The notes under the pieces are model-generated. The model had not been told where the DNA came from, did no database searches, and saw nothing but the letters and a program-made list of their open reading frames with translations. Below, one piece after another: positions 18,540-47,553 of a stretch of 56,517 nucleotides of DNA; the stretch's first letter is position 1, and each line of letters starts with the position of its first letter. This DNA is from a virus. A program made the translations under genes and the position numbers. The stretch lies in the IMG/VR virus record IMGVR_UViG_3300033150_002389, one strand, 5' to 3'.

Positions 18540-18932
18540 ATGCCCTCATTTTATAGTGATGCACAGTATGGCGTTGTTGAGCGCCTTCACTTCCATGCCT
18601 ATCAGGATTCGGTCCTCATAAACGGTGACAACACCCTGGTGAAGAGGTTCTATCCCAAAGGCCCAATCAAGATTTTGAAATTCGGGATCCAGCACCGGGC
18701 AACGCAAGGTGGCACCGAGGTCACGGTCAACTTAAAGCGCAACTCTTCAACGCTCGCAACGGTAGTGGCTTCGACGGACTCGGCGCCCTGGACCATTGCG
18801 AGTAAGTCCATTGACAAGAATGTGGACGCAGGGAGCTATTTGACCATCGACAGCGCCGGTACCGTTGCCAGCGGAAGCATAATTTGCTTCATTGATTACA
18901 GGCGCAGATACAGCTCGAAGTGGGATACCTGA
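18540..18932 (+). CDS. 130-aa virion-associated protein, paralog 2
   Basis: tandem paralog; protein conserved while synonymous sites have diverged. Confidence 0.55.
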   Translation: MPSFYSDAQYGVVERLHFHAYQDSVLINGDNTLVKRFYPKGPIKILKFGIQHRATQGGTEVTVNLKRNSSTLATVVASTDSAPWTIASKSIDKNVDAGSYLTIDSAGTVASGSIICFIDYRRRYSSKWDT

Positions 18933-29709: not shown

Positions 29710-31242
29710 ATGAAAATGGCTAATTTTTTAGTGAATCCGCCGCCTGTCCCCTCAATAGGCAAGTCAATGCAAAACGCTTTAAGCCTGAAATACCTCCAGA
29801 CGAGGCAGGCATTGGCGGAGCGAGATTTGAGGGACGTAGGCAGAGCAGAGGAATACGAGAAGGCGAAACGAAGTCTGGATGCCTTTAACGCTTACATTGA
29901 CACCTATGAGAAAACCGGGAACAAGGACCTTGCTGACAAGGCCTTCAAGGCTTTGGAGCCAGATTCAGACCCTCCAGCTGAAACGTGGCGTATAGATAAA
30001 AACGACCGCCACTACACCTTTGCTGATGGCACCGAGGTAATTGGGGACCCCCAAGACGTCAAGACCGTGATGGAGGAACTCAGGCAGTATTTGCCCCAAA
30101 TTCACCAGAACCCGGAATACCAAGCCAGATTCTTTGATTTCGCAGCTGCACATAATGTCGGTATCAAGTTCGGTAAAGCTGGGGAAATTGAGCCCTTATA
30201 CGACACGGCTGAGCGGAGGGTTTATAACCTTCCCAAGGCGGAGGCTCGGGCGAAGAAAGCAGAAGATCCGGTGCGGTACCAGACCTATGATGAACGAATT
30301 GGAAAGAGGAAGAAGTGGGAGCCCTCCACCAAGGAAGAGTTGCTTGACCTTGAGGAAGCCAAGCAGAGAATCAGGGCAAAATACGAGCAGCCTGGATTGA
30401 CCCCGGCGCAAAAGAGCAGGCTGAACTTGCTCGAAGAGAAGGCAAAAGCAGAGATTGAAATAATACAGGCGTACCGCATGGGAGAAAAGGATCTTCAGGG
30501 CAACCCTGTTGTGCCTCCAGAACAGGCAGCGGCCGCAACTCGACGCCTCGAAGAAACCATGAAACAGATAGACCAAATCCGCGGCCAAAGACCAACCAAC
30601 GCTTTAGCTCAACCTACAGGAATAGCCCCTCGTGGAGCGCCTATAACGCCATCAGCATTACCGGAGGCTCCAAGAGCAACGGCACCTGCGGCGCCGACCC
30701 AACCGACTGCTGGCTCATTGTTTTCCAAGCTTGTCGCTATCCATGCCGAGCTACTCAAACAGGGCGTTGACCCTATGAGTCTTCCCAAGGTTCGGGCTGC
30801 AACAGAAGCTTACTTCAAGCAGAACCCGGAAGCGCAAGAGCGTTTTAGGGATGCCCTTAATGCCCAGCAGATTGAGGGTCCCCCTCCGGTTTCGCCAGAA
30901 GTCAACGCCATACGCCAGGAACTGCGCAAGGAGGCAACCCAGAACCTGACAATTGCTGAGGCGGCAAAAGAGATTGGGAAACGGCTTGTATCGGGCATGA
31001 GTCCCGAGCGCGCTGGCGCAGTAGCGGCAGAGTACCTCCCACTTTTACCGGAAGATGAAAAGGTGGTGGACTTCGACTCATTCAAGAAGTTCTTCAAGAA
31101 GGTGCGGAAGGCGGATAAGTGGACTGAGCAATACCTCCGGGAGGCCTTCAAGACCTATTGGAAAGGCTTGAATTGGGCTGGCAATGCCCTCTTGGGCATA
31201 AGGATTCCTGGAACAGCCGGACTCAGAAGCGAGGAGAAGTAA
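29710..31242 (+). CDS. internal virion / ejection protein (putative)
   Basis: 510 aa; position before the giant protein. Confidence 0.4.
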   Translation: MKMANFLVNPPPVPSIGKSMQNALSLKYLQTRQALAERDLRDVGRAEEYEKAKRSLDAFNAYIDTYEKTGNKDLADKAFKALEPDSDPPAETWRIDKNDRHYTFADGTEVIGDPQDVKTVMEELRQYLPQIHQNPEYQARFFDFAAAHNVGIKFGKAGEIEPLYDTAERRVYNLPKAEARAKKAEDPVRYQTYDERIGKRKKWEPSTKEELLDLEEAKQRIRAKYEQPGLTPAQKSRLNLLEEKAKAEIEIIQAYRMGEKDLQGNPVVPPEQAAAATRRLEETMKQIDQIRGQRPTNALAQPTGIAPRGAPITPSALPEAPRATAPAAPTQPTAGSLFSKLVAIHAELLKQGVDPMSLPKVRAATEAYFKQNPEAQERFRDALNAQQIEGPPPVSPEVNAIRQELRKEATQNLTIAEAAKEIGKRLVSGMSPERAGAVAAEYLPLLPEDEKVVDFDSFKKFFKKVRKADKWTEQYLREAFKTYWKGLNWAGNALLGIRIPGTAGLRSEEK

Positions 31243-31244
31243 AA

Positions 31245-34200
31245 TTGCCCAACCTCAATGCCCTCATTCAAAGCGCCGAACGGGAAGCACAAGCCGTTAC
31301 GGGCGTAAAAGCCAACGCCCTTACTACTGCAGCTAGCCCCTCAACCGAAGAAAAAGACTACCAAAATTACCTCCTTCAATACGCAGTAACAAACCCTGAA
31401 AATCCTGCCCACCATTACGACTATCGCTCTGCCTACAGGGCTGGCGTGAAACCGATTATGTGGGACGATCTACCCAAAGAGGTTAAAGAGGAGGATATCC
31501 AACAAGCAATTACAGGGGAACGGACTGGCCGCCCCATGTCGAGAGAAGAAGCAATCCAGTTTTACTCTGGTCATTACATGTGGCCCGACCAATTCAAGCT
31601 TCCCGGACACCCTGTACCGCCGAAAAAAGAGGCGATCAATGCCCTCATTGCGCAGGCAGCAGAAGAGGCCCAAGCCACATTGCAAGGCACGGAAACCGAG
31701 TATCATCCGTGGGGTGCCGCCAAGATGACAGTCTATGACGCGCTGTCTGGGCTTTCTGCGCTGCCGCGCACCATAGGCATGGGAGAGACCGCCCGCAATG
31801 TGGCTGAGTTCTACGATAAGCGGGCTGAAGCGGATCCGGATATCCGGGAATTCAAGAAGGCGTCCGAGCAAGGGCGGGAAAGTATATGGACTGAGGCACT
31901 GGGTTCCGCTGGCCCGACAGCCATGGCTCTGGGCATGAGATTCATCCCCTATGTGGGGTTTCCACTCGCAGCCTCTTATTTCTGGCACCTGAATAAAGAC
32001 GAGGTGAAGGACCTTGCGCTAGCAAAGGGTGCCGACGAAAAAACAGCGGAGAGGATTTCCTGGATAGGCGGCACCGTCAACTCTGCACTTGATGTCCTTG
32101 GCCTGGAGGCGATTGCTGGGAAAATGCCATTCCTTCGCGGGCCAGTGAAGAGCGTGAAGCACCGCCTGGTAGGTGCTGCAGTCCGCCTAATGGCCAGTAC
32201 AGGTGGCGAAGGTCTCACAGAGGGAATGCAGGAAGTCGTCGGCGAGCTATCGTCCGAATATGCGGCGAGCAAAGATGTCAGAGAATTTCTCGATCGAGTC
32301 AGCCAAAAGCAGTGGTGGGACAAAGCACTTGCCAAAGCTGAAAAGTCACTGAAAGTCGGCTCCATGATGGGGGCCGTCTTCGGTGGTGCTGCATCGGTGG
32401 CGGAAACCAGGCTTCAAAAGCGCCTTAAACCTGAGAAGGCAACCAAGCCCCTAGAGGCCCCGAAAGACCTGAGCGAGCTCATAGAAGAGGCTGAAAAAGA
32501 GTATACCGAAATCTTGCAACAGGAGGTGCCCCGTGATCGTAAAGAGGAAGAAAGGATATTACGTCGTGAGCGAGCACAAAGGCAAGGACGGAAAGAGGAG
32601 GAGGCTCGGCGGCCCGTACCCCACGAGGGAAGAGGCCGAGGAGAGGCTGGAGCAGGTGGAGTATTTCAAGGCCCGCAGCCGACACGCCCAACGGAAGAAG
32701 CGGTCCGCGTCGAGGAGGAATATCAGAAAGGAGACAGAGTAGAAACGCCGGAGGGCGCCGGCGAGGTCCTCAGGGTCGCGCCAGCGGAAACATCTGGGGA
32801 GGAAAAGCTGACAGTGAAGCTGGACGAGGGAGAAACTGTCGAGGTCTCTCCCGCCGAAGAGAAGGTGGAAAAGCCGTCCCCCCCACCGGAGGAAGTCGAC
32901 GAGGCGGCACAGGAAGCCGAGCCTGCCCCTACCGAGGCGCAGAAGGAAGCTGGCAATTACAAGAAGGGTCATATCAATATACAGGGGATGGATATCTCCA
33001 TTGAGAATCCAAAAGGTTCGATAAGGGAGGGCGTAGACAAGCAAGGGAAAAAGTGGAAATCAAAGGTCGCGGCCCACTATGGCTACATCAGGCGCACAGA
33101 GGGCAAAGACGGCGATCAGGTAGATGTCTTTATCGGCCCGCGCCCTGAAACCAACAGGGTATTCGTGATAGACCAGGTTGACCCAGAGACCGGCCTGTTT
33201 GACGAACACAAAGCGATGGTCGGTTTCCCTACGAAGAAGATGGCCAAGACGGCCTACCTCCGCAGCTACACCAAGGATTGGAAGGGCCTGGGGGCGATCA
33301 CGGAAATGACCGTCAATCAATTCAAAGATTGGATTAGGACGGGAGACTCGTCGGCGCCCCTGGGTCTTAAAGAAAAGCGCAAGGTAGCAAAGGACGCTAC
33401 ACGGGGGGCTGCCGGCAACCTGCTTATAAAGACCTCAGATCAGACGATCTACGAATCCAGGCAACCCGTTCACGCCCTGATGCTCGGCGAATTTGGCGTA
33501 AAGCCAGAAGATGTTATTGACACTGGCTTGATTGATAAAACCGGGAAAGAGATGTGGGCCGGCAGCAAAGAGATCAAGCCGCTAACTGAAGAAGTCGCCG
33601 CAGCTGTCCGAGAGCAGAGGAAGCGGGAGCAGCAGAAAAAGAGGGCGCAGCGCGCAGCTAAAGCCAAGACCTTTCGGCAATGGGTCGCCCTCACAGGGGG
33701 CATTAATCCCCAGGACAAGACCTGGCGTGGCGAAATCCGAGACATGCGCTATACAATGAATGCCGCCGGCAAAAAAGTTCCAGCGCCGGGCTGGCCAGTT
33801 GGCATTTGGAATCGCAAGGCAAGAGGCGTGGATGAGCGGACCCATGACGCTATTGAGGCCGGGTGGCTTCCCACAGCGGCTACAGAAGACGACTTCATGC
33901 AGGCCCTAGAGCAAAACATTACGACCAAAATAACAAAGGCTGGTGCCCAGGAAGATGTTGACACCGTCGTAAAAGAAGAGGAAGATAAGTTAGAGCAAGA
34001 GTACGAGAGGGAGCTGGCCCGCCTTAAGGTTAAAATCAAGGAGGAATGGGATGCCGGAGGACAAGAATACACACCCGCCGATCTCGAAGGAGCTGCGCGA
34101 GAGCTTGAAGCCTACCTTGCGGCGAATGAACGTGACGAGATTAAAGCTGCGAGTATTGAAGAACTTGAGGAAATCTGGCGTCTTTTCGACGAAGCAGTAA

Positions 34201-37200
34201 AGCCAGAACCCCCAGTTGTTGAACAAGCCCTAGACGAAGCATGGAAGGAGATTTCCCAAGAAGACCAGGACTGGCTTGATAAAGAGCTCGGCCTGAAACC
34301 CGCCGAAGAGAAGCAGGCAGAAAGACCCCCCGCCAGAAAGAGCCCTCCTGAGAGCAAATCTATAGACGATGCCATTGGATGGGTTCACGCTGTGCAGCAA
34401 AGCGTGTGGGATCCCACGGAAAAGAAATGGCATTACACCCCGCGTGAAAAGATTATCAGGGCTATTGAAAAAGCCAAGAAAGCCGGGGCTCGGGTCGAAC
34501 GCCTGCCCGGTACGGGAAGGGAAAGCGCTGAGACCTGGAAGCTCTATGACGACGAAAAGGGCCTTGTCTACGTCCTTCAGAGGGAACCAAATGGGCGGAC
34601 CACTTGGACAAGTCGCAGGATTCCCCCATCCGCGTCCAAAAAATCCTATGAAGACATCGTGAAGCAACTTGAAGCCAAAGGTTTTTACGGGACGATTGAT
34701 CGGTTGAAGCGCGGCCTAATAACACTGGATGAAGCGCACAAGGAACTTTTGGGAGCAAGGCTGAAAATTAAGGTAGTACCGCTAAACCCCGAAGAGTTCG
34801 CAGCGGAACTTAAAGCCAAGGGTGTTGGTAGGCAGGAATCCTGGAGCCACTGGATTAGAAAGACTGGCTTAAAGCCGGGCATGGACGCGAAAGACTGGTA
34901 TAAGATATACGATTCCGTTACACTGAGTAAGCTGGAGGCTGCGCAGAAACCCAAAGAAGTCGAGAAAGCACAGCCAAGGGAGAAGGCTGCAAGACCAGCC
35001 CTTGAACTCAAACCGACCGAGCCAACGCCTCAAGAGAGGGTCGAATTACTGAGGGCAAAAGGCGAGATTGAAAAGCCCATCAAGGCATATCGGGAAGGGG
35101 ATCGAGAAATCATTAAACTCCCCGATGGCCGCAAGCTCATAAGAGGCAGGGACAGTGAAGGCCGGATCTACTACGAAGTCGAAGGCTCCTGGGAGGGCCT
35201 CAAAGAACTGGGCTTTGACCCGGAAACCTTTACGATTGACCAGGCAAAGGCCGCCCGAGTCTTTCAGCAATACCTCAAGCCTAAAGCCGCTATCCCCAAA
35301 GAAAAGGTTAAACCCCCTACCACCGGCAAACAGAAGAGTCTGCTTGCCCCGGAGAAGGGGGAAACGCTTGATATTTTTGAGAGAGGTGTTGACAAGATAG
35401 GTGAAAGCGGGGCACAATACATTTATGCACCTACCACGCCCCAAGAGCAATATTCACTATTTGATTTCAAGCCTGCCGAACGGCAAGAGGATCGTAAAGT
35501 ACCTCCCCGTAGACGTGTGCGAGTTTCCACAACCGGACGAATTAGAGCGGCGGGAGAACTCGTATCAGGCCCAGAGGATGTTGCAGCCCTCCTCGCCTTC
35601 CTCAGAAAATCGCCACAAGAATTCCTTTACACGGTAACGACTGATAAAGAAGGTGGAATCCTTGAGATCCACAAGTACGCCAAGGGTCACAGCGCCGGTG
35701 CCATAGCCAACCCCGTTGAACTTGCTGGGCGGATACTGAACATACCTGGGGCATCTGAAGCTTATCTCGTCCACAACCATCCCACAGGTGACCCGAAACC
35801 AGGCAAAGAAGATTACCAGATAACTTCAAGCGTCAGGAGCCTTCTTGAGGCTGGCGATGTGGAACTGACATCACTTATTCTTGGTGGAACCGAATACGTT
35901 GAGATGCGCCCAGGGGAAGTGGCAGAGACAACAAGGAAGATCCGCCCCAGAATTCGCAAAATTAGCCTTCCGGTGAAAGAGCGCAGCCTGCTTCTCGGCG
36001 GCGCCCCACAGACTAGAATCGTCGATTCGGAGGACGCGCTCAAAGCCCTGAAGGAGCAATTCAATAATGACGATGGCGTTATGCTCCTTGACCGCAAAAA
36101 CAGGGTGCTTGCCTTTGTGCCCTTTATCAAAGGCAGAAGCATGAAGCAGACCACCGCCGACGTTCTAAGGATCGCCGAAGCCACCAACGCCAGCGGAATG
36201 ATCGTCAACAACAGCGTGCTAACCCAGGCGCGCTCGGACTACGTCAATGCCCTGTGGAACGGAATTGAAGGTTTGACGATAGTAGACGTATTTTGGGAAG
36301 CCCAATCGTGGGCTTCGCGACAAGGGCGTGGCAAAGGTCCCACAAAATATGCCACGCTTCTTTCCGAAACCAAACTAGCTCTCCGCGGCGAACAACCATA
36401 CCGCCTATCCCCGCGCCAATTCCGAAATATCAAAAGGACCGCCAAGCTGGTTCACTCCTGGCTCGAAAAAGCCGGAGCACCTCCCGAAGTGCTTGAGCGC
36501 ATTGATGTAGAGCTAAAGCCCATAATCTCCTTGAGCGGAAAAAATATTGCCAAGTCAGTGAAGGAGTGGCAGGAACAGGGCATGGGGATACGCCAGATTT
36601 TTGGTGCTACCACCTTTGACGATTATCGCGCGATTATGGAACTTGCCCTGTCGCTTCAGAATTTGAAAGGGCTGGAACGCACCACCTATCACGAATACAT
36701 GCACGTGGCCCAGAGATGGCTACTGACAAAATCCGATGCGGAGCACTTGATAAAATATTTTGGTAGCGAGGAGGCCGCTGCGGATGCCTTTGCGGAATTC
36801 ATGGTGAATCGCTCATCGCTCAAAGATAAGCCCAACATGATCCGCGCAATCATGATGAGGTTGCGCCGCTACCTGCAAATCATTAGGAACGGGCTCAAGG
36901 GACAGGGTTTTACCCGTCCCGAGGATATCTGGGGCAAAATGGTCACCGGGCAGTATGTCCCGCATTTTGGCGCACCAGAGATCGAAGAGACTACGACGGC
37001 TTTCTCTTTGGCGGAGCCCCCGGGGAAAGAAGCAGAAGTCGAGCCCCGCATAGTTCCGACCAAGCATTTCTCAGGCACATTTGATGACTGGAACAGGCAC
37101 GTGATCGAGACCTGGGAAAAATACGGCGGACGCAAAGGCACTTTTCAGGCTGAAGAGAAGAAATACGAACAGGGTTTTTCAAGGGGGTCCTTAGGCCCCC

Positions 37201-40200
37201 TCCGCACGCTTGGGGAAATATGGAAGAACCGCAAAGCTGGGTGGAAAGCTCAAAAGCCAGATACCACGGTCCTCGACCGCCTCATATCAGTGCCGGCACA
37301 TCACTTTGAGAAGGTCCCCGCTTTAAGGAGAATGTACGAGGCGGCTCTTGCCAGGCCCGACACCTACTATGAGTACCTGAATCTCCTAACCAAGAACAGT
37401 AAAGGTGAATACCTTACCAAAAAGCTGGAGGACTTCAGAAAGCGCCACAAACAGGACTACGCTAAGGTCAAGGCGTACCTAGTCAACCGCGACCGCAACC
37501 AAATAGGGTACAGGGTTGAGAAAGACGAGGGTAGCGACCTATGGAAGCTCAGGAAACCAAACGGCCAGTTAGTGGGCAGTTATGACTCTGAGGCCAAGGC
37601 ATGGGGCGCTGCCGTTCAAATGGAGGCTCAGGACCTTAGAAAGCGCGGCTTTCCCGACCAAGCCGTTGACGCGGTGGTGTCCTTCCGGCTAATCATGCAT
37701 AAAGGCTTTAATATCCTGTCAGCTTCGATGCGCGAAATTATCAGCCAATATGAGGAGTCGGGTACGGCACTACCCTCAGTAGCGGTCAGGCTGGACAACA
37801 AAAGGGTAGAAGTTGACCTCAAAACCGCCCTAGCCATGATGGGGGATATGCGAGGTTACTACTTCCCGCGCATAAGAAGGCCCGGGCGATTCGTGCTGTA
37901 CGCCGAAAAGAAGGGCGAAAACCCGATCATGGAATTCTTTGACACCAAAACGCTTCTTGCCAAGCGGCACACAGAACTCCAAAGGAAAGGGTACACCGTC
38001 ACGAAGGATCTCTCCCCCAAGATGCCGGAAGACGTCTTCGAAATGGCAGGCCAGGTCATTGCCATGCAGGCGCAGATCAATCAGGCCCTTGAGCGTATAC
38101 ATGCGCGCGGACTATCTTTAGAGGACTTTAACCTCCAGTGGACCGACAGGATGGTAAGGCCAGGGCTCAGGGACTTCGTTATCACCGGACCGACATCCAA
38201 GAGGATGACACGGGTCTTTAAGGAGCTGGGCGGAAAGTTCTATTCAGCGTATGAAGGGGAGCCGAGGGCCTGGCATTTCTACAACCCTGGCCCGAATTTC
38301 GACAAAAAGGTCGCAAAGGCGCTGGCCAACTCAGTTGGCATAGTTGACCAAGAGGTGCAGGTACTGTTCGCAAAAGCCATGGCCGAGCAAGTGGCCAACA
38401 TCATAAAGGGTCGTGGGCACCGTGCCCACATGATCCAGCGCCAAATGGCCAAGGGCAAGGATGTCTGGATCGGTTATGAGGAGGACCCGGCTATTGCCGC
38501 GGCGAAATATGCGTCGGGGTTGGCCGCAGGGGAGGCTAAAAGGATCGCAGCGCTTGACATGGTTCGAGCGTTCACTGGCACAGACATTACCTGGCAGCAG
38601 TACAAGACCCTTGAGGGCGAGGACGCCACGTATGAGGAGTGGCTCAACATGGTGGAGGACCGGCGGGTCAACCCCACGAAACAGCCCAATGCCTTCAGGG
38701 AAGGCAAAGCGTACCTGCAGGACGTGCTCAGGAACGAAGAGTGGATTGACCGGTTCGTGGGCACAGTCAAGGGCGTGGCGGTGCTGAAATATCTAGGCGG
38801 CCGCATCAGCGCCCCCTTGGTGAACCTCACTGCCATGGTAACGTCAGTCCCGGCAGCTATGGAAGGTATCGCTGGGATCCCGATACACAAGACCTTCCGT
38901 CTCATCGGCAACGCCTCCAGGCTTTACGGCCACTATAAATTCGGTGACAAGGATAAATTACCGCAGCACGTCAAGGACCTTTTTGAGGAGATCGAACAGA
39001 AAGGCTGGCACAAGTCGCAATACAATCGCGAAGCGCTGTCAGTTCTTGAGAGCAAGCTAGGCCGAGGGTGGAACAGGGCAATCGAATGGGCCATGCTCGG
39101 CTTCGGGGCTACCGAGCAACTCAACAGGGTTTCGACAATTGCAGGCACTTACCTTGGATTGAAGCTCCAAACACCCCAAGGGAGCTTTAACCACGACGAA
39201 GCCCTGCGCATTGCAAAGGAGGTCTCAGACAAGGCTCACGGAGTTTACGGAAAGGCGAATATCCCATACCTCGCTAGGGGCGCCAATCCTGCCGCGCAAA
39301 TTGCCAGAATGTTTTACGTATTCCGGACCTTTTCGCACAACTACCTTCTGACCATGAAGCGAGTGTGGGGTCCCGGCTGGAAGCCCGAGCACGCAAAGGC
39401 TTTTTCGTGGATGCTCCTGAGTCCAGCCGTGCTGGCCGGGACTGGGGCGACTGTCTCTACGCCTATCATAACGGCAATCGCTCAAGCCCTGGGCATAGGC
39501 GGAGAAGACCCAGAGGAAAAATTTTACGACTGGTTGAACCGGAATTTTGGCGAATACGCTGAGCGATTCGGCAGGTTCGGCGCTTTCGGTCTCGCAGGCG
39601 TATCCCTTAAGGGTTCGCTTCAGATCGGAATTACCGACATCCCAACGACGATACCCGAAATCCTTGGCGCTCCTGGAAGCGTCATATCTGAAACATTCTA
39701 CCGCGGTCCACAAAGCATTTTGCGTGGCGACGTCCTAAAGGGCATCGAAAATGAACTACCGCTCTTCATGGCCGGAATAGTAAAGGCATATAGAGAGACC
39801 ACAGAGGGGGTGACCACCAGAAACAATGCACCCGTCTTCTGGGGCAATGAACCGCTCCTCCCGGAGACGATTGATGCACTTTACAGAGCTCTCTCCTTTA
39901 ATCCCGCAAGGATCGCGGGGATTAGGGAGAAGCAATGGAAGGAGAGGCGCATTGAACAGAAATATCGAGAAATGAGGACGGATATCTACGCCAAGATCAA
40001 GCGCTTTTACCTGCGTCCCCTATCTGAACGGTCCAAGGCGGATTGGTTGGATATCATCGCTGAAATTCAAGATTACAACGAAGCGGTAAGGGCGCACGGG
40101 CTTGAGCGCCTCGCACCCCTCATCACCCGGAAATCCATACGAAACAATATCAGGCGGGCATTCCGGCCCCCAAAAAGGGAACGCCTAAGGCAGGCGATGC

Positions 40201-40205
40201 CATAA
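31245..40205 (+). CDS. giant polyvalent ejection protein (about 2986 aa) with pyrophosphatase-like, JAB/MPN and zincin HExxH domains
   Basis: TTG start with GAGGAG 8 nt upstream; DGDQVDVFIG (PPase signature-like), LVHNHPTGDPKPGKEDYQIT (JAB), HEYMH (zincin); C-terminal hydrophobic segments. Confidence 0.6.
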   Translation: MPNLNALIQSAEREAQAVTGVKANALTTAASPSTEEKDYQNYLLQYAVTNPENPAHHYDYRSAYRAGVKPIMWDDLPKEVKEEDIQQAITGERTGRPMSREEAIQFYSGHYMWPDQFKLPGHPVPPKKEAINALIAQAAEEAQATLQGTETEYHPWGAAKMTVYDALSGLSALPRTIGMGETARNVAEFYDKRAEADPDIREFKKASEQGRESIWTEALGSAGPTAMALGMRFIPYVGFPLAASYFWHLNKDEVKDLALAKGADEKTAERISWIGGTVNSALDVLGLEAIAGKMPFLRGPVKSVKHRLVGAAVRLMASTGGEGLTEGMQEVVGELSSEYAASKDVREFLDRVSQKQWWDKALAKAEKSLKVGSMMGAVFGGAASVAETRLQKRLKPEKATKPLEAPKDLSELIEEAEKEYTEILQQEVPRDRKEEERILRRERAQRQGRKEEEARRPVPHEGRGRGEAGAGGVFQGPQPTRPTEEAVRVEEEYQKGDRVETPEGAGEVLRVAPAETSGEEKLTVKLDEGETVEVSPAEEKVEKPSPPPEEVDEAAQEAEPAPTEAQKEAGNYKKGHINIQGMDISIENPKGSIREGVDKQGKKWKSKVAAHYGYIRRTEGKDGDQVDVFIGPRPETNRVFVIDQVDPETGLFDEHKAMVGFPTKKMAKTAYLRSYTKDWKGLGAITEMTVNQFKDWIRTGDSSAPLGLKEKRKVAKDATRGAAGNLLIKTSDQTIYESRQPVHALMLGEFGVKPEDVIDTGLIDKTGKEMWAGSKEIKPLTEEVAAAVREQRKREQQKKRAQRAAKAKTFRQWVALTGGINPQDKTWRGEIRDMRYTMNAAGKKVPAPGWPVGIWNRKARGVDERTHDAIEAGWLPTAATEDDFMQALEQNITTKITKAGAQEDVDTVVKEEEDKLEQEYERELARLKVKIKEEWDAGGQEYTPADLEGAARELEAYLAANERDEIKAASIEELEEIWRLFDEAVKPEPPVVEQALDEAWKEISQEDQDWLDKELGLKPAEEKQAERPPARKSPPESKSIDDAIGWVHAVQQSVWDPTEKKWHYTPREKIIRAIEKAKKAGARVERLPGTGRESAETWKLYDDEKGLVYVLQREPNGRTTWTSRRIPPSASKKSYEDIVKQLEAKGFYGTIDRLKRGLITLDEAHKELLGARLKIKVVPLNPEEFAAELKAKGVGRQESWSHWIRKTGLKPGMDAKDWYKIYDSVTLSKLEAAQKPKEVEKAQPREKAARPALELKPTEPTPQERVELLRAKGEIEKPIKAYREGDREIIKLPDGRKLIRGRDSEGRIYYEVEGSWEGLKELGFDPETFTIDQAKAARVFQQYLKPKAAIPKEKVKPPTTGKQKSLLAPEKGETLDIFERGVDKIGESGAQYIYAPTTPQEQYSLFDFKPAERQEDRKVPPRRRVRVSTTGRIRAAGELVSGPEDVAALLAFLRKSPQEFLYTVTTDKEGGILEIHKYAKGHSAGAIANPVELAGRILNIPGASEAYLVHNHPTGDPKPGKEDYQITSSVRSLLEAGDVELTSLILGGTEYVEMRPGEVAETTRKIRPRIRKISLPVKERSLLLGGAPQTRIVDSEDALKALKEQFNNDDGVMLLDRKNRVLAFVPFIKGRSMKQTTADVLRIAEATNASGMIVNNSVLTQARSDYVNALWNGIEGLTIVDVFWEAQSWASRQGRGKGPTKYATLLSETKLALRGEQPYRLSPRQFRNIKRTAKLVHSWLEKAGAPPEVLERIDVELKPIISLSGKNIAKSVKEWQEQGMGIRQIFGATTFDDYRAIMELALSLQNLKGLERTTYHEYMHVAQRWLLTKSDAEHLIKYFGSEEAAADAFAEFMVNRSSLKDKPNMIRAIMMRLRRYLQIIRNGLKGQGFTRPEDIWGKMVTGQYVPHFGAPEIEETTTAFSLAEPPGKEAEVEPRIVPTKHFSGTFDDWNRHVIETWEKYGGRKGTFQAEEKKYEQGFSRGSLGPLRTLGEIWKNRKAGWKAQKPDTTVLDRLISVPAHHFEKVPALRRMYEAALARPDTYYEYLNLLTKNSKGEYLTKKLEDFRKRHKQDYAKVKAYLVNRDRNQIGYRVEKDEGSDLWKLRKPNGQLVGSYDSEAKAWGAAVQMEAQDLRKRGFPDQAVDAVVSFRLIMHKGFNILSASMREIISQYEESGTALPSVAVRLDNKRVEVDLKTALAMMGDMRGYYFPRIRRPGRFVLYAEKKGENPIMEFFDTKTLLAKRHTELQRKGYTVTKDLSPKMPEDVFEMAGQVIAMQAQINQALERIHARGLSLEDFNLQWTDRMVRPGLRDFVITGPTSKRMTRVFKELGGKFYSAYEGEPRAWHFYNPGPNFDKKVAKALANSVGIVDQEVQVLFAKAMAEQVANIIKGRGHRAHMIQRQMAKGKDVWIGYEEDPAIAAAKYASGLAAGEAKRIAALDMVRAFTGTDITWQQYKTLEGEDATYEEWLNMVEDRRVNPTKQPNAFREGKAYLQDVLRNEEWIDRFVGTVKGVAVLKYLGGRISAPLVNLTAMVTSVPAAMEGIAGIPIHKTFRLIGNASRLYGHYKFGDKDKLPQHVKDLFEEIEQKGWHKSQYNREALSVLESKLGRGWNRAIEWAMLGFGATEQLNRVSTIAGTYLGLKLQTPQGSFNHDEALRIAKEVSDKAHGVYGKANIPYLARGANPAAQIARMFYVFRTFSHNYLLTMKRVWGPGWKPEHAKAFSWMLLSPAVLAGTGATVSTPIITAIAQALGIGGEDPEEKFYDWLNRNFGEYAERFGRFGAFGLAGVSLKGSLQIGITDIPTTIPEILGAPGSVISETFYRGPQSILRGDVLKGIENELPLFMAGIVKAYRETTEGVTTRNNAPVFWGNEPLLPETIDALYRALSFNPARIAGIREKQWKERRIEQKYREMRTDIYAKIKRFYLRPLSERSKADWLDIIAEIQDYNEAVRAHGLERLAPLITRKSIRNNIRRAFRPPKRERLRQAMP
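32533..32742 (+). CDS. embedded +1-frame ORF, 69-aa basic protein
   Basis: GTG with AGGAGG 6 nt upstream; GC3-rich codons in this frame while the host frame is low complexity with A-ending codons. Confidence 0.4.
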   Translation: MIVKRKKGYYVVSEHKGKDGKRRRLGGPYPTREEAEERLEQVEYFKARSRHAQRKKRSASRRNIRKETE

Positions 40206-40248
40206 GATGCCATAAAACGCCATAAACTGCCACGACTTGCCATACTTT
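40199..40248. repeat. five tandem 10-bp repeats (consensus GCCATAAnnT) overlapping the stop codon of the giant gene
   Basis: gccataagat gccataaaac gccataaact gccacgactt gccatacttt read directly. Confidence 0.55.
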
Positions 40249-40259
40249 GCGATGACCGA

Positions 40260-40288
40260 GGCGGCGCTTCAGCGCCGCCTGTTTTTTT
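40260..40288 (+). terminator. rho-independent terminator
   Basis: GGCGGCGC-ttca-GCGCCGCC stem followed by seven T. Confidence 0.7.
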
Positions 40289-40307
40289 ACCAAAAAGGAG
40301 ATTTGTC

Positions 40308-42875
40308 ATGAAATCCAGGCACTTAAAAATCGTTTTTCAGGCGCTTCTGATTATCTTTATGCTTCTCGCCCACCTTTCTTGGGCGGGAACCCTCATGTCC
40401 AATCCCAAGTTTCAAGCGTTCGACTCTTCCGGTGTACCCCTTGCCGGAGGAAAGCTCTACAGCTATCTCCCGGGTACCACGACAAGCAAGGCTACATACT
40501 CTGACCGCAACCTTTCGACGCCCAACACCAATCCTGTCATTTTGGATAGTCGCGGTGAGGCGACGATCTATGGGTCCGGGCTTTACAAGCTTGTCCTTAA
40601 AGATTCGTCCGATGTCACTATCTGGACCATGGATAACGTGGAATTCGTGGGGGGAGGGGGATCTTACAATCTCTATCCTAACCCCTCGGAAAGTGACCAT
40701 GGCGCTGCTGGAAACGGATCGTCACTTTACGACCTCCTTACGGCACTAGGCACCAGCAAAAAAGCGACCGTGGCGTTCACCCATAACGGCTCCTCGAACA
40801 CCACCACCTACACGGTCAACACCACCTACGACATTTCTTCCTACACCAACGTAACGTTTCAATTCGAAAACGGTGCCCTCCTCTCTCCTGCTGCTGGAGT
40901 GACGGTAACGATTTATTCGCCGGAGAATATTAATGCGCCGGCAACACAACAGATTTTTGATGGTGATGGATCAATCGCCTATTCTGTTCCAGGGCACATA
41001 TATACCGGCTGGTACGGGTCTGACACTGATGCTTATCAAGATGCTTTTGGCAACGCAAATTGCCATATCACCTGCACTCATGATGTCAGCCTTACAGATA
41101 AAATTACAATACAAGATGGTCAGTGGATTGACTTTCTCCCAGGTGTGGTACTAACTCAGACCGGCACAGATAAAAATACTTTTTATGCTTCTTCAAAAAA
41201 TAATATCACCATTGATGGCCGAGGCGGAAAACTGGTTGGCAGATTGGTTACAGAGCAGCTTACAGACAGAGGATTAATCCATTTTGATGGTTGCACAGAT
41301 GTCAGAGTAACTGATCTTGAGGTAATGACCGGCTTTGATTTGGTTTGGATTGCTAATTCGGATCGTGTATGGGTAGAGAGAAACGAGCTGCATAACTACC
41401 AGCGTGTTGCACTGAATGGCACGAGCAATACAAAATTTCATTTTGATAAAAATACTATTTACGACAATCAGGAAACAGGGAAGCAGAATTGTTATGCTAT
41501 CCAAGCAACAGGTGATAATGATGGCGGCAGCCCGCTTGAATATTCCTCAATCAATTTTAACAAGATAACAGGTCCTCGGGCCTGGGATGGCATTATGTCT
41601 CATGACTGTGACGATCTTGAGATTATAGGCAATGTCATAAAAGATGTTCGCCAGGGGATTGATGTTGGGCTGGCAGGCAGCACAAATATAGTTAAGAATG
41701 TAAGGATCATTGGAAATTATCTTGAAGGCACCTCAACGGATACTTGGTCTGGCACAGGTGCTAATAATTCCGGCATTCAAATCTCTGGTCAACCTGTGGC
41801 AGGCGATTGGACAGATTTTGATGCTATTTCAGATGTAGTAGTGTCAGACAATATCATTACTGGCTTCAATAAGCACACAACATCCGCTGGAAATGCAGGG
41901 ATTTTTGCTCAATATATCAGAAATTTCTCGCTTACAGGAAATGTGATTTACGGCTTGGAAGATAATTGGACTCATGGTGCTGGGATTGTATTAGTTGGTG
42001 CGACGGTTTCTGGGACAATTTCAGGAAACACTATCACAGCTAAATCAGGCGAAACAGGTCCTATGAATCAGGGAATTCGTCTGTATAACCTTGATCTATG
42101 TTACGGTGTTACAGTTGTTGGCAATACAATTGCCGATGAATCAGGCAATATGGATTATGCTATTCGGGTAACAGGTTCAAATTTTATAGATGCAGTAGTT
42201 GAAAAGAATAACTTTTACGGTTTTACCACACCTTACAATTTTGGAGCCACTGGAAACAAAGGCCCTCTGCCATTTTGTGATGTAGGCTATTGGAATGGTA
42301 ATGCTTGGGCTAATCCCGTTACCTATTTAGGCGCGAAGATGCGTTATTATACTGCTACTGATAAAGTTGACACTGGGGGGTTGGTTCTTAGAAAGCGTAT
42401 AGAAGATACAATTGCCTCAGTGGACGACACTGATACGATTACTATAAATGGATCAACATCTAATATGGCAGTTGGAGACGTAATTCACATTTTCAAAGAT
42501 ACAGATGAGTCTAGTCCTTATGTTCATAGTACTACAATCGCAACGATTGTCGATGCTGATACTATAGACATTACAGGTGCACTTGGAGCAACAACGGAGG
42601 TCTCAGCGGGGAATAAAATCTACGTTGTAGAATGGGAAAAGCCGTATGCATCAGGGACGGGGACAATTGCCAGTGGAACAACAAGCAAGGTTATTACTCA
42701 TGGATTAGGATTTACCCCCGACCCACAAGATATAACCATTACTCTAATAGAAAATCCTACAAATACCCCAGGGGCAATCTGGGTAGATAGTATTGGCGAT
42801 ACAACTTTTACGGTAAACTGTGAGAATGACCCTGGTGCATCAAATCTGGATTTTGCTTGGAAATATAGGAAATAA
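40308..42875 (+). CDS. tailspike / tail fiber with right-handed beta-helix (pectate-lyase-like) domain
   Basis: AAGGAG SD; conserved tail-fiber N-terminal motif ...GVPLAGGKLYSYLPGTTTSKATYSD...NTNPVILDSRGEA; beta-helix repeat motifs; AT-rich C-terminal two-thirds. Confidence 0.65.
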   Translation: MKSRHLKIVFQALLIIFMLLAHLSWAGTLMSNPKFQAFDSSGVPLAGGKLYSYLPGTTTSKATYSDRNLSTPNTNPVILDSRGEATIYGSGLYKLVLKDSSDVTIWTMDNVEFVGGGGSYNLYPNPSESDHGAAGNGSSLYDLLTALGTSKKATVAFTHNGSSNTTTYTVNTTYDISSYTNVTFQFENGALLSPAAGVTVTIYSPENINAPATQQIFDGDGSIAYSVPGHIYTGWYGSDTDAYQDAFGNANCHITCTHDVSLTDKITIQDGQWIDFLPGVVLTQTGTDKNTFYASSKNNITIDGRGGKLVGRLVTEQLTDRGLIHFDGCTDVRVTDLEVMTGFDLVWIANSDRVWVERNELHNYQRVALNGTSNTKFHFDKNTIYDNQETGKQNCYAIQATGDNDGGSPLEYSSINFNKITGPRAWDGIMSHDCDDLEIIGNVIKDVRQGIDVGLAGSTNIVKNVRIIGNYLEGTSTDTWSGTGANNSGIQISGQPVAGDWTDFDAISDVVVSDNIITGFNKHTTSAGNAGIFAQYIRNFSLTGNVIYGLEDNWTHGAGIVLVGATVSGTISGNTITAKSGETGPMNQGIRLYNLDLCYGVTVVGNTIADESGNMDYAIRVTGSNFIDAVVEKNNFYGFTTPYNFGATGNKGPLPFCDVGYWNGNAWANPVTYLGAKMRYYTATDKVDTGGLVLRKRIEDTIASVDDTDTITINGSTSNMAVGDVIHIFKDTDESSPYVHSTTIATIVDADTIDITGALGATTEVSAGNKIYVVEWEKPYASGTGTIASGTTSKVITHGLGFTPDPQDITITLIENPTNTPGAIWVDSIGDTTFTVNCENDPGASNLDFAWKYRK

Positions 42876-43175: not shown

Positions 43176-44396
43176 TTAGTTATCGCTTTCGGAGTGCCTA
43201 AATTTCTTTGCCACTTTTTTGCCACCCCTAGCATCGGAATAGATGGCCCTGAGGTCGTCTCCTTCCTCCCAGTAGTAGCGGTCAAATGCCTTGGTAGTGC
43301 TCCTCATCGAGCCATAGCGGATCTCCTCCGGGGTGCGGTATTTTCTGAGAGCCCTGGTGGTTGAGTGGGTAGTGCCCCCGTAGAGGTCCACTCCCTGGAT
43401 TCCGAGCTTGGCACAGGCCCGCTTCCACCACTTGTAAAAATGTTTCTCGCCGAATTGCCTCCCATTCTTATGGCGGAAGAAATAGGCGTCAGGATCTATG
43501 CAAGGGGGTAGGGCCCCCAAGATCTCCACGTCTTCGTCAATGAGATACACGATTTTGGACCTATTCTCCTTGGGGTGCCGTATCAGGATCTCTCTTGCCT
43601 TCAGGTTGATGTCCCCTTCCCGGATATTGCGCCATTCCTCGGGCCGCACGTTAAAGTAGGTGGTCATCCATTTGATGCCCAGCCAGGTCTTGTAGGGGGC
43701 CCACCCCTTCAGCGTATCCAAGATACCGAATTGGTCTGCCTTCGTAACAGTCTTTCGCCGGCGAAGCTCAAACTGGACCTTCGGGAACTTGGGCATTACC
43801 GAGATCTCATCATTATCGTAAAGCCACTTGAAGAACTGCTTAAGTGTCTGAATATAATTGAATTTGCTCTTATTGCTGACGTTATACTGGGTGAGAAAAA
43901 ACTGGAAGTCTTTCAGGCGCAGGCGTTTTACGCTGACAGGGCCAAAAACTCGAATCGCCTTCCAAATATGGTCTTCAAGGGCCCGATAGGTGTTTGGGCT
44001 GATGCCGTCCGGCCTGATCTCCGCCTCTCGGAGGCGGAGCCACTCATTGGCTAGATTTTCAAACCCAAGGGGATTATCAGCCCGATATTCCCTGGGGTCG
44101 AACGTTCCCTCATCCTCCTTGAACCTGAGGCCAGTGAGGCATTTTTGAGCGGCCTCGTAGCTCCTGAAACGCCGTGTGACCCCCCTGAAGTAGATCCGAA
44201 ACCGCCTGCTGGCCCTTTGCTCTGGATGGTTCGGGCAGAAGAGTCCCCTCCGACCATCATCTTTAAACCTGCCCCCGCATAAGGGGCACTTTTCATCAGA
44301 ATAGATTCCCCCTTTCATGCAATCGCCCCCAACCCCAGATTTGGCTGATACGGGGCCGATCTTACGTTGGTAAGGGGTAGATGTCAAGGAGGCCAT
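43176..44396 (-). CDS. int: tyrosine recombinase / phage integrase
   Basis: C-terminal HSTTRAL (HxxR) and AFDRYY catalytic Tyr region; adjacent to tRNA-like att sequence. Confidence 0.7.
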   Translation of the reverse strand: MASLTSTPYQRKIGPVSAKSGVGGDCMKGGIYSDEKCPLCGGRFKDDGRRGLFCPNHPEQRASRRFRIYFRGVTRRFRSYEAAQKCLTGLRFKEDEGTFDPREYRADNPLGFENLANEWLRLREAEIRPDGISPNTYRALEDHIWKAIRVFGPVSVKRLRLKDFQFFLTQYNVSNKSKFNYIQTLKQFFKWLYDNDEISVMPKFPKVQFELRRRKTVTKADQFGILDTLKGWAPYKTWLGIKWMTTYFNVRPEEWRNIREGDINLKAREILIRHPKENRSKIVYLIDEDVEILGALPPCIDPDAYFFRHKNGRQFGEKHFYKWWKRACAKLGIQGVDLYGGTTHSTTRALRKYRTPEEIRYGSMRSTTKAFDRYYWEEGDDLRAIYSDARGGKKVAKKFRHSESDN

Positions 44397-46765: not shown

Positions 46766-47140
46766 TTAACCTCTTAAAGCAGTTATTATCTTTTTCTTTA
46801 TAAACTGGAGTAATGTCATATTTTCCAGTTCTCTGATCTTCTTTCTTAATCGAGCATTCTCGCGATAATCACTTTCACGCCTCTTCTCTTGGGCTTCGAA
46901 AACTGCAAAGGGCAAGCCAAGCGCTGTCTGGGTAGCTTGATCCCACCCTATTACCACATCAAGGCCATAGAAATTACGGAACCTTTTCCCCTTAACCATT
47001 TCTCTGGTTATTACAATCTCTTTATTCGGTTCAAATAAACCGTGTGCCAACAAATATTCTGGGCCATAGCGAGCAATAGGCTGGAAATCATTAGGTTTTA
47101 CCTTTTCAATTTTTACGTCCCTTACAAGTATCATCTCCAA
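46766..47140 (-). CDS. hypothetical protein
   Basis: ORF track. Confidence 0.4.
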   Translation of the reverse strand: MEMILVRDVKIEKVKPNDFQPIARYGPEYLLAHGLFEPNKEIVITREMVKGKRFRNFYGLDVVIGWDQATQTALGLPFAVFEAQEKRRESDYRENARLRKKIRELENMTLLQFIKKKIITALRG

Positions 47141-47342
47141 ACCTACTTCTTCTTAGACACGAGACCTTGGAGATCTCTCCACCGTTCTCTAGCCATTTTG
47201 CTAGGGCCTTACCGGAAATCAGATGTTTGCCGCCCAACCTCCGCGATGGAAGGGCAGCCCTATGGATCAGCGCATATACCGTGAGCTCATGTACCCGGAG
47301 GAACTTTGCTACCTCTTTGACACTATAGATCTCATCTTCCAT
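47106..47342 (-). CDS. HTH_17 (excisionase/MerR-like) DNA-binding protein
   Basis: internal ATG at 47342 of ORF 47106-47537; YSVKEVAKFLRVHELTVYALIHRAALPSRRLGGKHLI. Confidence 0.45.
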   Translation of the reverse strand: MEDEIYSVKEVAKFLRVHELTVYALIHRAALPSRRLGGKHLISGKALAKWLENGGEISKVSCLRRSRFGDDTCKGRKN

Positions 47343-47361
47343 TCGCTTCCACCTACCTAAC

Positions 47362-47553
47362 TTATTTCGCATATCCCTCCAGTCCCTTCTCAATGACGAG
47401 CCATTCTGGTAACAGCAACTCGTTCGCTGTCCGATCCTCCCAGAGTATTTGGCTTTCGGGGATCCATGCTTCGTCATCACCAAACCTAAAGAGCCGCGCC
47501 CTGCCGGTATCACAGAGCTGACCATCATAAATGACAATCATCTCCTTGGGCAT
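47362..47553 (-). CDS. hypothetical small protein
   Basis: GGAGG SD; ORF track. Confidence 0.4.
   Translation of the reverse strand: MPKEMIVIYDGQLCDTGRARLFRFGDDEAWIPESQILWEDRTANELLLPEWLVIEKGLEGYAK

What the first reader, a model, noticed from the sequence alone, without database searches (positions are those of the whole stretch)
40199..40288. Helically phased 10-bp tandem repeats overlapping the giant gene's stop codon, followed by a strong terminator
Five consecutive 10-bp units with consensus GCCATAAnnT start within the last codons of the giant gene, placing the motif on one face of the helix. A textbook terminator follows 12 nt later, and then the tailspike SD and ATG. The array could be a protein-binding site such as a packaging or regulatory site, or an anti-termination target controlling tailspike expression.
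Basis: seen in the sequence. Interest (0 to 1): 0.5.

Follow-up and report, generated by a model that had tools for sequence, protein, structure and literature searches.

The report
Decamer repeat before tailspike terminator
A real but lineage-specific 10-bp tandem repeat fills the non-conserved spacer between the stop codon of a giant phage ejection gene and a strong terminator; the terminator in front of the tailspike gene recurs in several relatives, the repeat occurs in none, so the finding is largely ordinary.

Summary
Positions 40199-40248 are five head-to-tail decamers (GCCATAAGAT, GCCATAAAAC, GCCATAAACT, GCCACGACTT, GCCATACTTT), followed by a degenerate sixth unit. The giant gene's TAA (40203-40205) lies in unit 1. 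A 9-bp, 8-GC hairpin with a T7 tail follows at 40259-40288, then an SD and the ATG at 40308.

The repeat exceeds chance: 28-29 of 40 matches at lag 10, against a maximum of 26 in 200 shuffles.

No relative carries the array. This covers about 12 lineages at 59% identity or less in the giant protein's C-terminus, and five lineages sharing the tailspike N-domain. Four lineages do have an intrinsic terminator at the same junction, each followed directly by the SD and ATG.

The motif is not dispersed in the genome, lies 31 kb from terS and 2.9 kb from the likely attP, and is not notably C-rich or curved.

Best reading (confidence about 0.5): a slippage expansion of the gene's last 10 nt in a free 3'-UTR spacer. 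The functional part is the terminator, which gates tailspike transcription as at the P22 gene 16/gene 9 junction.

One result points the other way. Mismatches in the older units avoid a TGCCAT core (p 0.006-0.02), so a phased binding array remains possible (about 0.2). Interest is low.

The parts
40197..40248 (+). Tandem decamer array: five units GCCATAAGAT/GCCATAAAAC/GCCATAAACT/GCCACGACTT/GCCATACTTT from 40199. In the register GATGCCATAA the first two copies (40197-40216) are identical.
40249..40258 (+). Degenerate sixth unit GCGATGACCG, which abuts the terminator stem
   Evidence: unit comparison
40203..40205 (+). TAA stop of the giant gene, inside unit 1. Units 2 and 3 carry TAA in the other two frames (40213, 40223).
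31158..40205 (+). Giant ORF (3015 aa as listed; the true start was not determined). It is a polyvalent ejection-type protein with InPase (593-726) and RadC/JAB (1471-1583) domains.
   Evidence: PMC5512222
40259..40288 (+). Intrinsic terminator: 9-bp stem (8 G-C), loop TTCA, G+T7 tail; hairpin -18.6 kcal/mol. Strongest plus-strand candidate in the window.
40295..40310 (+). Shine-Dalgarno AAGGAG (40295-40300), 7-nt spacer, ATG 40308. Only 27 nt separate the terminator stem from the ATG, which leaves no room for a promoter.
40308..42875 (+). Tailspike-like beta-helix protein (855 aa). Residues 1-29 form a Sec-signal-like extension. Homologues start at the equivalent of the internal ATG 40395.

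Best explanation
The array is a lineage-specific short tandem repeat. It was most likely made by replication slippage of the decamer GATGCCATAA, which is the last 10 nt (Met-Pro-stop) of the giant ejection gene. Extra copies fall after the stop codon, so they cost nothing and decay with distance from the gene: copies 1-2 are identical, copy 3 matches 8/10, and copies 4-6 match 6-7/10.

The array occupies the 3'-UTR spacer between the stop codon and an intrinsic terminator. In relatives that spacer is 26-58 nt of unrelated, non-repetitive sequence.

The functional element of the locus is the terminator. It sits at the junction between the ejection-protein genes and the tailspike gene of a distant P22-like temperate podovirus. 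It is followed within 27 nt by the tailspike SD and ATG. The tailspike can therefore only be transcribed by polymerases that read through the terminator, either by leakage or because late transcription is antiterminated at its promoter, as in lambdoid phages. This sets tailspike dosage and blocks unmodified transcription.

Shown: the repeat, the terminator, the gene order, the absence of the array from relatives and the recurrence of the terminator. Inferred: the slippage origin, neutrality of the array, and read-through or antitermination. Possible incidental effects of the array are an unstructured spacer (-3.7 kcal/mol over 60 nt) and stop codons in all three frames ahead of the hairpin.
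For: The repeat is real and graded.

No array follows the homologous gene in L001-L003 or L008-L019 (giant C-terminus 36-59% identical). None precedes tailspikes sharing the N-domain in L140-L151. No lag-7-13 arrays occur anywhere in those relatives' fetched DNA.

Canonical terminators lie at the same junction in L010/L012, L017, L018 and L140-144, each followed directly by SD and ATG.

The motif is not dispersed. GCCATAA occurs 11 times against 6.2 expected, three of them in the array. GCCA-N6-GCCA pairs occur only inside arrays. TGCCAT does not cluster elsewhere.

The phage has a P22-like structural module: Hc3/gp10-like, Ad3, a DNA-ejection protein, and its nearest cultured relatives are podoviruses at 41% identity or less. 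PMC2629481 describes the P22 gene 16/gene 9 junction as a region of rapid flux thought to affect how often late transcription reaches the tailspike gene.
Against: Mismatches in units 4-6 are not spread evenly. A contiguous 6-bp core TGCCAT has 2 mismatches in 18 positions, while the other four positions have 9 in 12 (p 0.006-0.02 after allowing for post hoc choice of the core). Purifying selection on a motif predicts this better than neutral decay does, although ascertainment bias contributes.

The exact 10-bp period is kept over six units.

No close relative or population data were available, so neutrality is not demonstrated.

No Q/gp23-like antiterminator was recognised in the window, so the read-through mechanism is inferred only.
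Confidence: 0.5

Rival explanations
1. The array is a helically phased DNA-binding site. Six TGCCAT cores, one per helical turn and all in the same orientation, would be bound head-to-tail by a small phage protein, either an excisionase/MerR-like HTH_17 protein or a ribbon-helix-helix protein. The resulting filament would act as a roadblock or alter terminator efficiency, tuning or silencing transcription into the tailspike gene. Analogues are Arc/Mnt in the P22 immI region at the same junction and D29 Gp36 on direct repeats at gene ends.
For: Exact 10-bp phasing over six units. Mismatches avoid the core. The window encodes candidate binders: an HTH_17 domain in 47106..47537(-) (E 6e-13), a weak HTH in 7574..7783(+), and a sub-threshold RHH in 4043..4249(+). 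Core-conserved, spacer-variable GCCA-N6 arrays occur in other viral contigs; one is retained in three contigs that look related (P4-like, L059/L095/L129), next to an AlpA/Vis-like gene in L059, the only one whose ORFs were read and identified by inspection. D29 Gp36 binds direct repeats and represses downstream genes (PMC12266134). The P22 junction has a regulatory role (PMC2629481).
Against: The array is absent from all retrievable relatives, including those that keep the terminator. It is the only site of its kind in the genome. No promoter is nearby. Nothing links it to any particular protein. Predicted curvature is only moderate, about 20 degrees or the 97th-98th percentile, using wedge parameters recalled from memory.
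Confidence: 0.2
2. The array acts at the RNA level. It would be an unstructured 3'-UTR segment with five or six GCCAU motifs that serves as a Rho-loading (rut-like) site, as a binding platform for an oligomeric RNA-binding protein that modulates the adjacent terminator, or as the body of a 3'-UTR-derived small RNA ending at the terminator.
For: The array RNA is essentially unstructured (-3.7 kcal/mol over 60 nt). It has C 15 against G 7 in 50 nt, within a G-skewed operon. It lies directly upstream of a hairpin with a U-tail. It is in sense orientation.
Against: The C>G excess is only in the top 5-10% of late-operon windows. The 10-nt spacing is outside the 11-13-nt C periodicity used for rut prediction (my recollection of Alifano 1991 and RhoTermPredict). 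No Rfam family matches; the best is SorY at 25 bits against a gathering score of 111. It is not conserved in relatives.
Confidence: 0.08
3. The array is recognised by the same factor as the (GCCNN)n pentamer arrays at 602-678 and 56341-56402. All three read GCCAN every 10 nt on the sense strand of their operon, in intergenic gaps.
For: The only period-10 GCCA runs of three or more units in the genome are 40199 (+, 5 units) and 638 (-, 4 units), with 0.01 expected. All three arrays are in sense orientation and lie in gene gaps. (GCCNN)n arrays recur in distant phages that carry a homologue of the flanking gene.
Against: My rough estimate is that two arbitrary decamer arrays share a 4-mer core about 10-30% of the time. 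The unit composition is otherwise different: an AT-rich second pentamer here, against GCC-rich pentamers at both half-turns there. GCCA-N6 arrays with unrelated units are common.
Confidence: 0.08
4. The array is a packaging (pac) recognition site bound by the small terminase.
For: Phased direct repeats are typical of some TerS sites (general knowledge, for example SPP1 pacL). The contig is circular, which is consistent with headful packaging.
Against: terS (8550..9110) and terL (9226..10980) lie 31 kb away. In P22-like phages pac lies within the terS gene (established knowledge). The array is absent from relatives. No read-end data exist for this assembly.
Confidence: 0.03

Closest known systems
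Terminator-controlled tail protein expression at the P22 gene 16 / gene 9 junction (immI or 'ant moron' region)
   Same: The position in the late operon is the same: between the ejection-protein genes and the tailspike gene of a P22-type podovirus module. Transcription into the tailspike must pass a terminator. This junction is known to be variable and to influence how often late transcription reaches the tailspike gene (PMC2629481; the primary work by Berget et al. 1983 is cited from memory).
   Different: Here the junction is only 102 nt and carries no genes (no mnt, arc, ant or sar). No homologue of the Q/gp23 antiterminator was recognised. The upstream gene is a 3015-aa polyvalent protein rather than gp16.
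Short tandem repeats (VNTR-like) generated by replication slippage in non-coding DNA
   Same: The copies are head-to-tail, the two gene-proximal copies are identical, identity falls with distance, the array is not conserved in relatives, and it lies in a spacer whose sequence is otherwise unconstrained.
   Different: Mismatches in the older units avoid a 6-bp core. Copy-number polymorphism, the hallmark of slippage repeats, could not be examined.
Helically phased direct-repeat arrays bound head-to-tail by small winged-helix or MerR-like proteins (lambda Xis, P2 Cox boxes, 186 Apl, Streptomyces BldC, mycobacteriophage D29 Gp36)
   Same: It has five or six same-orientation repeats spaced one helical turn apart, with a short conserved core. 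D29 Gp36 binds repeats at a gene end inside an operon and represses downstream genes (PMC12266134).
   Different: No cognate protein has been identified. The array is not at attP (2.9 kb away) or at a promoter. It is a single site and is not conserved. The comparisons with Xis, Cox and Apl rest on my knowledge, not on tests done here.

Membership tests
Intrinsic (Rho-independent) terminator | G+C-rich stem-loop immediately followed by a U/T tract, on the sense strand downstream of a gene | tested here: met
   9-bp stem with 8 G-C pairs, tetraloop and T7 tail at 40259-40288. Hairpin -18.6 kcal/mol. Present in the MFE and centroid folds.
P22-type terminator-gated tailspike junction | Located between ejection-protein genes and the tailspike gene of a P22-like podovirus late operon | tested here: met
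   phrog_598 DNA-ejection protein, Hc3 and Ad3 lie upstream, and a beta-helix protein lies downstream. The nearest cultured relatives are podoviruses with 'stabilization protein' annotations.
P22-type terminator-gated tailspike junction | Downstream gene has no promoter of its own after the terminator, so it depends on read-through | tested here: met
   Only 27 nt separate the stem end (40280) from the ATG (40308). The only promoter-like match overlaps the ATG. The layout is the same in L017, L018, L010 and L140.
P22-type terminator-gated tailspike junction | Late antiterminator (Q/gp23-like) that lets late transcripts pass terminators | tested here: inconclusive
   The ORFs before the late promoter (6701..7453, 7895..8365) have no Pfam or PHROG match. 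Absence of a match does not exclude a novel antiterminator.
Slippage-derived short tandem repeat | Head-to-tail copies with the highest identity between adjacent, youngest copies | tested here: met
   Copies 1 and 2 match 10/10, copy 3 matches 8/10, and copies 4-6 match 6-7/10 to copy 1. TRF reports 3.6 copies at 84% identity.
Slippage-derived short tandem repeat | Copy-number variation among closely related genomes | not testable with these tools
   The window's own contig, or a second contig with the same tailspike, could not be retrieved. The nearest relatives are 66% identical or less.
Phased protein-binding array (Xis/Cox/Apl/BldC/Gp36 or RHH type) | Three or more same-orientation repeats at 10-11 bp spacing with a conserved core | tested here: met
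   Six units at exactly 10 bp. The TGCCAT core has 2 mismatches in 18 positions in units 4-6, against 9 in 12 outside it (p 0.006-0.02).
Phased protein-binding array (Xis/Cox/Apl/BldC/Gp36 or RHH type) | Located at a promoter/operator or in attP arms, or repeated at other regulated sites | tested here: not met
   No promoter is nearby. The attP candidate at about 43127-43155 is 2.9 kb away. The motif is not found elsewhere.
Phased protein-binding array (Xis/Cox/Apl/BldC/Gp36 or RHH type) | Conserved in related genomes | tested here: not met
   Absent from all relatives retrieved. Caveat: all of them are distant.
Phased protein-binding array (Xis/Cox/Apl/BldC/Gp36 or RHH type) | Specific binding by a cognate protein | not testable with these tools
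   Candidate HTH_17 and RHH genes exist, but binding needs EMSA or footprinting.
pac site (small-terminase recognition) | Within or next to the terminase genes, with packaging-series ends starting there | tested here: not met
   terS is at 8550..9110 and terL at 9226..10980, 31 kb away. Ends cannot be mapped from an assembled contig.
Rho utilisation (rut) site | C-rich, G-poor, unstructured stretch of about 60-80 nt that stands out from its surroundings | tested here: inconclusive
   The stretch is unstructured. Its C-G excess ranks only in the top 5-10% of late-operon windows.

The most novel reading that the evidence does not exclude
The six in-phase TGCCAT cores are a selected binding array for a small phage-encoded protein that polymerises head-to-tail (excisionase/MerR-like or ribbon-helix-helix). 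Bound directly against the terminator stem, it would set how much late transcription reaches the tailspike gene, or would silence that gene in the lysogen. This would be a gene-free functional counterpart of the Arc/Mnt-controlled immI region that occupies the same junction in P22. It might share its recognition principle with the (GCCNN)n arrays of the early operon.
Probability: 0.2. Interest if true: 0.45.

Novelty: new member of a known kind. Interest (0 to 1): 0.18.

Why it matters
If the main reading is right, the result is mostly housekeeping. It shows that an eye-catching, helically phased repeat in a phage intergenic gap need not be a regulatory site. It also shows that the conserved signal at this junction is the terminator, which makes the last late gene (the tailspike) depend on read-through. 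That extends a P22-type arrangement to a very distant, uncultured temperate podovirus that is probably deltaproteobacterial. Useful for annotation, not surprising.

If the minority reading is right, the locus would be a compact, testable example of a roadblock or terminator-tuning array that controls receptor-binding-protein dosage.

Tried and rejected
- **DNA similarity to cultured phages:** none found.
- **Retrieving the window's own contig or a near-identical one for copy-number comparison:** failed. Exact-protein look-ups with the tailspike, P0047 and the integrase returned nothing, and the cluster listing gave no accession.
- **Searching viral contigs for GCCATAA-N3 x3:** four loci, all unrelated in context: a giant-virus contig full of repeats, a repeat after what looks by inspection like a primase/Toprim-type gene, and two sibling contigs. 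I rejected these as evidence for a shared element, because the conserved part there is a different portion of the unit.
- **Sigma-54 promoter on the minus strand:** rejected. The TGGC spacing gives GG-N9-GC rather than GG-N10-GC (inspection).
- **Sigma-70 promoter in or after the array:** none.
- **attP arm sites:** rejected on distance.
- **Mosaic boundary at the array:** rejected. The G+C drop lies about 700 bp further on, inside the tailspike gene.
- **Stop-codon read-through fusing the giant protein to the tailspike:** the two ORFs are in frame with no stop over the 102 nt between the TAA and the ATG. I estimate about a 1-in-15 chance of this arising by accident, and nothing else supports it.
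- **Rfam:** no family matched.
- **DNA curvature:** the array is only moderately curved. The strong peak at 40288 comes from the T7/A5 tracts of the terminator tail (wedge parameters recalled from memory).
Full report
**What is in the sequence**

Positions 40199-40248 read GCCATAAGAT GCCATAAAAC GCCATAAACT GCCACGACTT GCCATACTTT. These are followed by GCGATGACCG (40249-58), a decayed sixth unit that runs straight into a hairpin. In the register GATGCCATAA the first two copies (40197-40216) are identical. Tandem Repeats Finder reports period 10, 3.6 copies, score 51.

The 3015-codon ORF 31158..40205 ends ...GCG ATG CCA TAA, so its stop codon lies in unit 1. With a period of 10, the TAAs of units 1-3 fall in all three reading frames.

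The hairpin at 40259-40280 has 9 pairs (8 G-C) and loop TTCA, and is followed by G plus T7. It folds at -18.6 kcal/mol. It is the strongest plus-strand terminator candidate in the whole window. AAGGAG (40295-40300) and ATG 40308 open an 855-aa beta-helix protein.

**Is the repeat more than chance?**

Yes. Lag-10 self-identity over 40 nt is 28-29, while the largest value at any lag from 4 to 30 in 200 dinucleotide-preserving shuffles was 26. Five GCCA at exact 10-nt spacing are expected 0.01 times per genome. The gap before the terminator is 10 nt and is itself a decayed unit. The core shared by all units is (T)GCCA(T), not GCCATAA.

**Genomic context**

The first and last 70 nt of the window are identical, so this is a circular or complete genome of 56,447 bp. 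It is a temperate podovirus with a distant P22-type structural module:
- terS and terL at 8550-10980
- portal 13315..15360
- major head protein 17166..18056
- Ad3 adaptor and Hc3 (the "stabilization protein" of P22 relatives) at 24278-26610
- a DNA-ejection protein (phrog_598) at 29061..29702
- the giant gene, with InPase and RadC/JAB domains; this is the "polyvalent protein" class of Iyer et al. (PMC5512222)
- the tailspike-like gene
- a convergent tyrosine integrase at 43176..44396

A T-arm/acceptor-like sequence, GGTTCAAATCCAGTCGTCCCGACCA, lies just beyond the integrase's 3' end. Rfam supports only a weak T-arm match.

The nearest cultured phages are podoviruses at 41% protein identity or less, and there is no DNA match in INPHARED. 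Protein relatives come from Desulfobacterales and Smithella MAGs and from sediment-type metagenomes.

The array and terminator therefore sit inside the late operon, in front of its last gene. This is the equivalent of the P22 gene 16/gene 9 junction.

**Comparative evidence**

I retrieved the end of the homologous giant gene from about a dozen lineages at 36-59% identity over the last 400 residues. None has a repeat after the stop codon. A lag-7-13 scan of all their fetched DNA found no comparable array.

Three of those lineages (L010/L012, L017, L018) have a canonical intrinsic terminator in a gap of about 90-110 nt, followed directly by SD and ATG.

Proteins sharing the tailspike N-terminal domain (56-66% identity) gave five further lineages. 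In one of them, seen in five contigs from different samples (L140-144), the layout is the same: stop codon, 30-nt non-repetitive spacer, terminator, SD, ATG. The other four have tightly packed genes at this position.

So the recurrent feature is the terminator in front of the gene that follows the big ejection gene. The spacer before it is free sequence, and the array is peculiar to this genome. No relative closer than 66% could be found, and the window's own source contig could not be retrieved. Conservation at short evolutionary distance and copy-number polymorphism therefore remain untested.

**Tests of specific functional ideas**

- *Dispersed sites.* GCCATAA occurs 11 times against 6.2 expected, three of them in the array. 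GCCA-N6-GCCA pairs occur only inside arrays. TGCCAT does not cluster anywhere else, and many minus-strand hits are simply ATGGCA start codons.
- *pac site.* The terminase genes are 31 kb away.
- *attP arm or Xis sites.* The likely attP is 2.9 kb away.
- *Promoter.* There is no sigma-70 match in or after the array. The minus-strand TGGC spacing gives GG-N9-GC, one base short of a sigma-54 promoter (inspection).
- *rut-like site.* The RNA is unstructured (-3.7 kcal/mol over 60 nt), but its C>G excess ranks only in the top 5-10% of late-operon windows.
- *Intrinsic bend.* A wedge-model calculation, with parameters recalled from memory, gives about 20 degrees in the array (97th-98th percentile). 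The strong peak at 40288 comes from the T7/A5 tracts.
- *Known RNA family.* None.
- *Mosaic joint.* The G+C drop is about 700 bp further on, inside the tailspike gene, at the boundary between the N-domain and the receptor-binding domain.

**Evidence pointing towards function**

In the older units 4-6, mismatches to unit 1 are not evenly spread. A contiguous 6-bp core TGCCAT has 2 mismatches in 18 positions, whereas the other four positions have 9 in 12, which is saturation. Random placement of the same number of mismatches gives so clean a 6-column window in 0.6% of trials for units 4-6, and in 1.3-2.1% when units 2-3 are included. Ascertainment inflates this, because the units were recognised by their core. 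It is still what a phased binding array would look like.

The window does encode small proteins of the kinds that bind such arrays: an HTH_17 excisionase-family domain (E 6e-13), a weaker HTH and a sub-threshold RHH. Comparable core-conserved GCCA-N6 arrays exist in other viral contigs. One is retained in three contigs that look related (P4-like); in L059, the only one whose ORFs I read, it lies next to what appears by inspection to be an AlpA/Vis-type gene. D29 Gp36 binds direct repeats at a gene end and represses downstream genes (PMC12266134).

Decamer arrays are common, and the GCCA core is not diagnostic.

**A possible link within the genome**

The only other strong lag-10 arrays are at 602-678 and 56341-56402. 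Read on the minus strand, which is the sense strand of the leftward early operon, they are (GCCNN)n pentamer arrays flanking gene 566->56414. All three arrays therefore show GCCAN every 10 nt in sense orientation, in gaps between genes. My rough estimate is that two arbitrary decamer arrays share a 4-mer core with 10-30% probability, and the units otherwise differ. I treat this as a low-probability rival.

**Most likely mechanism**

I commit, at about 0.5, to the following. The decamer that ends the giant gene (GATGCCATAA) was expanded by slippage. Copies after the stop codon are free to decay, and they fill a spacer that is arbitrary sequence in relatives.

The working element is the terminator. 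The tailspike SD and ATG follow it within 27 nt. The tailspike is therefore transcribed only by polymerases that pass the hairpin, either through incomplete termination or because late transcription is antiterminated at its promoter. This parallels the account of P22 in PMC2629481, where passage of late transcription through the 16/9 region is thought to influence tailspike level. I cite the primary work (Berget et al. 1983) from memory.

No Q/gp23-like gene was recognised, so the read-through mechanism is inferred. The phased DNA-binding array is the main rival (0.2). An RNA-level role, a factor shared with the (GCCNN)n arrays, and a pac site follow at lower probability.

**Novelty and verdict**

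The terminator before the tailspike is a known arrangement, seen here in a very distant lineage. The array is a new instance of a common kind of feature (a short tandem repeat) with an unresolved hint of core constraint. Interest is low (0.18). The decisive data would be read-level variation, closely related genomes, a read-through reporter with and without the array, and footprinting with the small DNA-binding proteins.

Noticed in passing
window 602-678 and 56341-56402 (minus strand); loci L053 6410-6640 and L090: (GCCNN)n pentanucleotide arrays on the sense strand flank gene 566->56414 (199 aa, phrog_4652) in the leftward early operon. Distant homologues of that gene in two viral contigs sit in an operon preceded by a (GCCNN)n array of more than 200 nt. 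About 14 of 121 GCCA-N6 hits in viral contigs are of this pentamer type. Function is unknown; this may be a recurrent element worth its own study.
   Followed up: partly
window 40308-40394 versus ATG 40395; L140 2501: The tailspike ORF as called from the strong SD and ATG 40308 begins with a 29-residue Sec-signal-like peptide, MKSRHLKIVFQALLIIFMLLAHLSWAGTL. The closest N-domain homologue (66% identity, L140-144) starts at the equivalent of the internal ATG 40395. There may be two isoforms, or an exported depolymerase form. The genes after the giant gene in L002 and L013 also start with signal peptides.
   Followed up: partly
window 43095-43155: A tRNA-3'-end-like sequence (T-arm GGTTCAAATCC plus acceptor strand and CCA) lies directly beside the 3' end of the integrase gene 43176..44396(-). 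It is a likely attP core targeting a tRNA or tmRNA gene. Rfam gives only a weak T-arm match (11.5 bits).
   Followed up: partly
window 1-70 and 56448-56517: An exact 70-nt terminal overlap shows that the window is a circularly closed assembly of a 56,447-bp genome. A gene (566->56414, minus strand) spans the junction.
   Followed up: yes
window 812-840 (minus strand) and ATG 802: A near-consensus sigma-70 promoter (TTGACA-17-TATACT) sits so close to the ATG at 802 that the first early-left transcript would be leaderless or nearly so. The 84-codon ORF it opens reads through the 602-678 array.
   Followed up: no
window 5710-5783 within gene 5233..6306: AGAGAY-type 6/12/18/30-bp repeats lie inside the DnaD-like replication initiator gene. 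They look like origin iterons embedded in the initiator gene, as in lambda O.
   Followed up: no
window 18075..18467 and 18540..18932: Two tandem paralogous 130-aa genes (300 nt at 75% identity) lie directly after the major head protein gene. They could be duplicated decoration or head-fibre-type genes.
   Followed up: no
window 40900-41000: G+C falls from about 0.53 to about 0.41 roughly 200 codons into the tailspike gene. Homologues share only the first ~25% of the protein. This is a classic N-domain/receptor-binding-domain exchange boundary.
   Followed up: partly
window 40203-40310: The giant gene's stop and the tailspike ATG are in the same frame, with no stop codon in the 102 nt between them. 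Within the array spacers, an AC dinucleotide recurs with a 9-nt period (40217, 40226, 40235, 40244), so the spacers run AAAAC > AAACT > GACTT > ACTTT. Both may be accidents and are unexplained.
   Followed up: no
window 7574-7919: A small HTH gene (7574..7783), a 31-bp x2 direct repeat (7806-7866) and a promoter-like site (7890-7919, TTGACA-18-TAAACT) lie just before terS. This is a candidate late-promoter control region.
   Followed up: no
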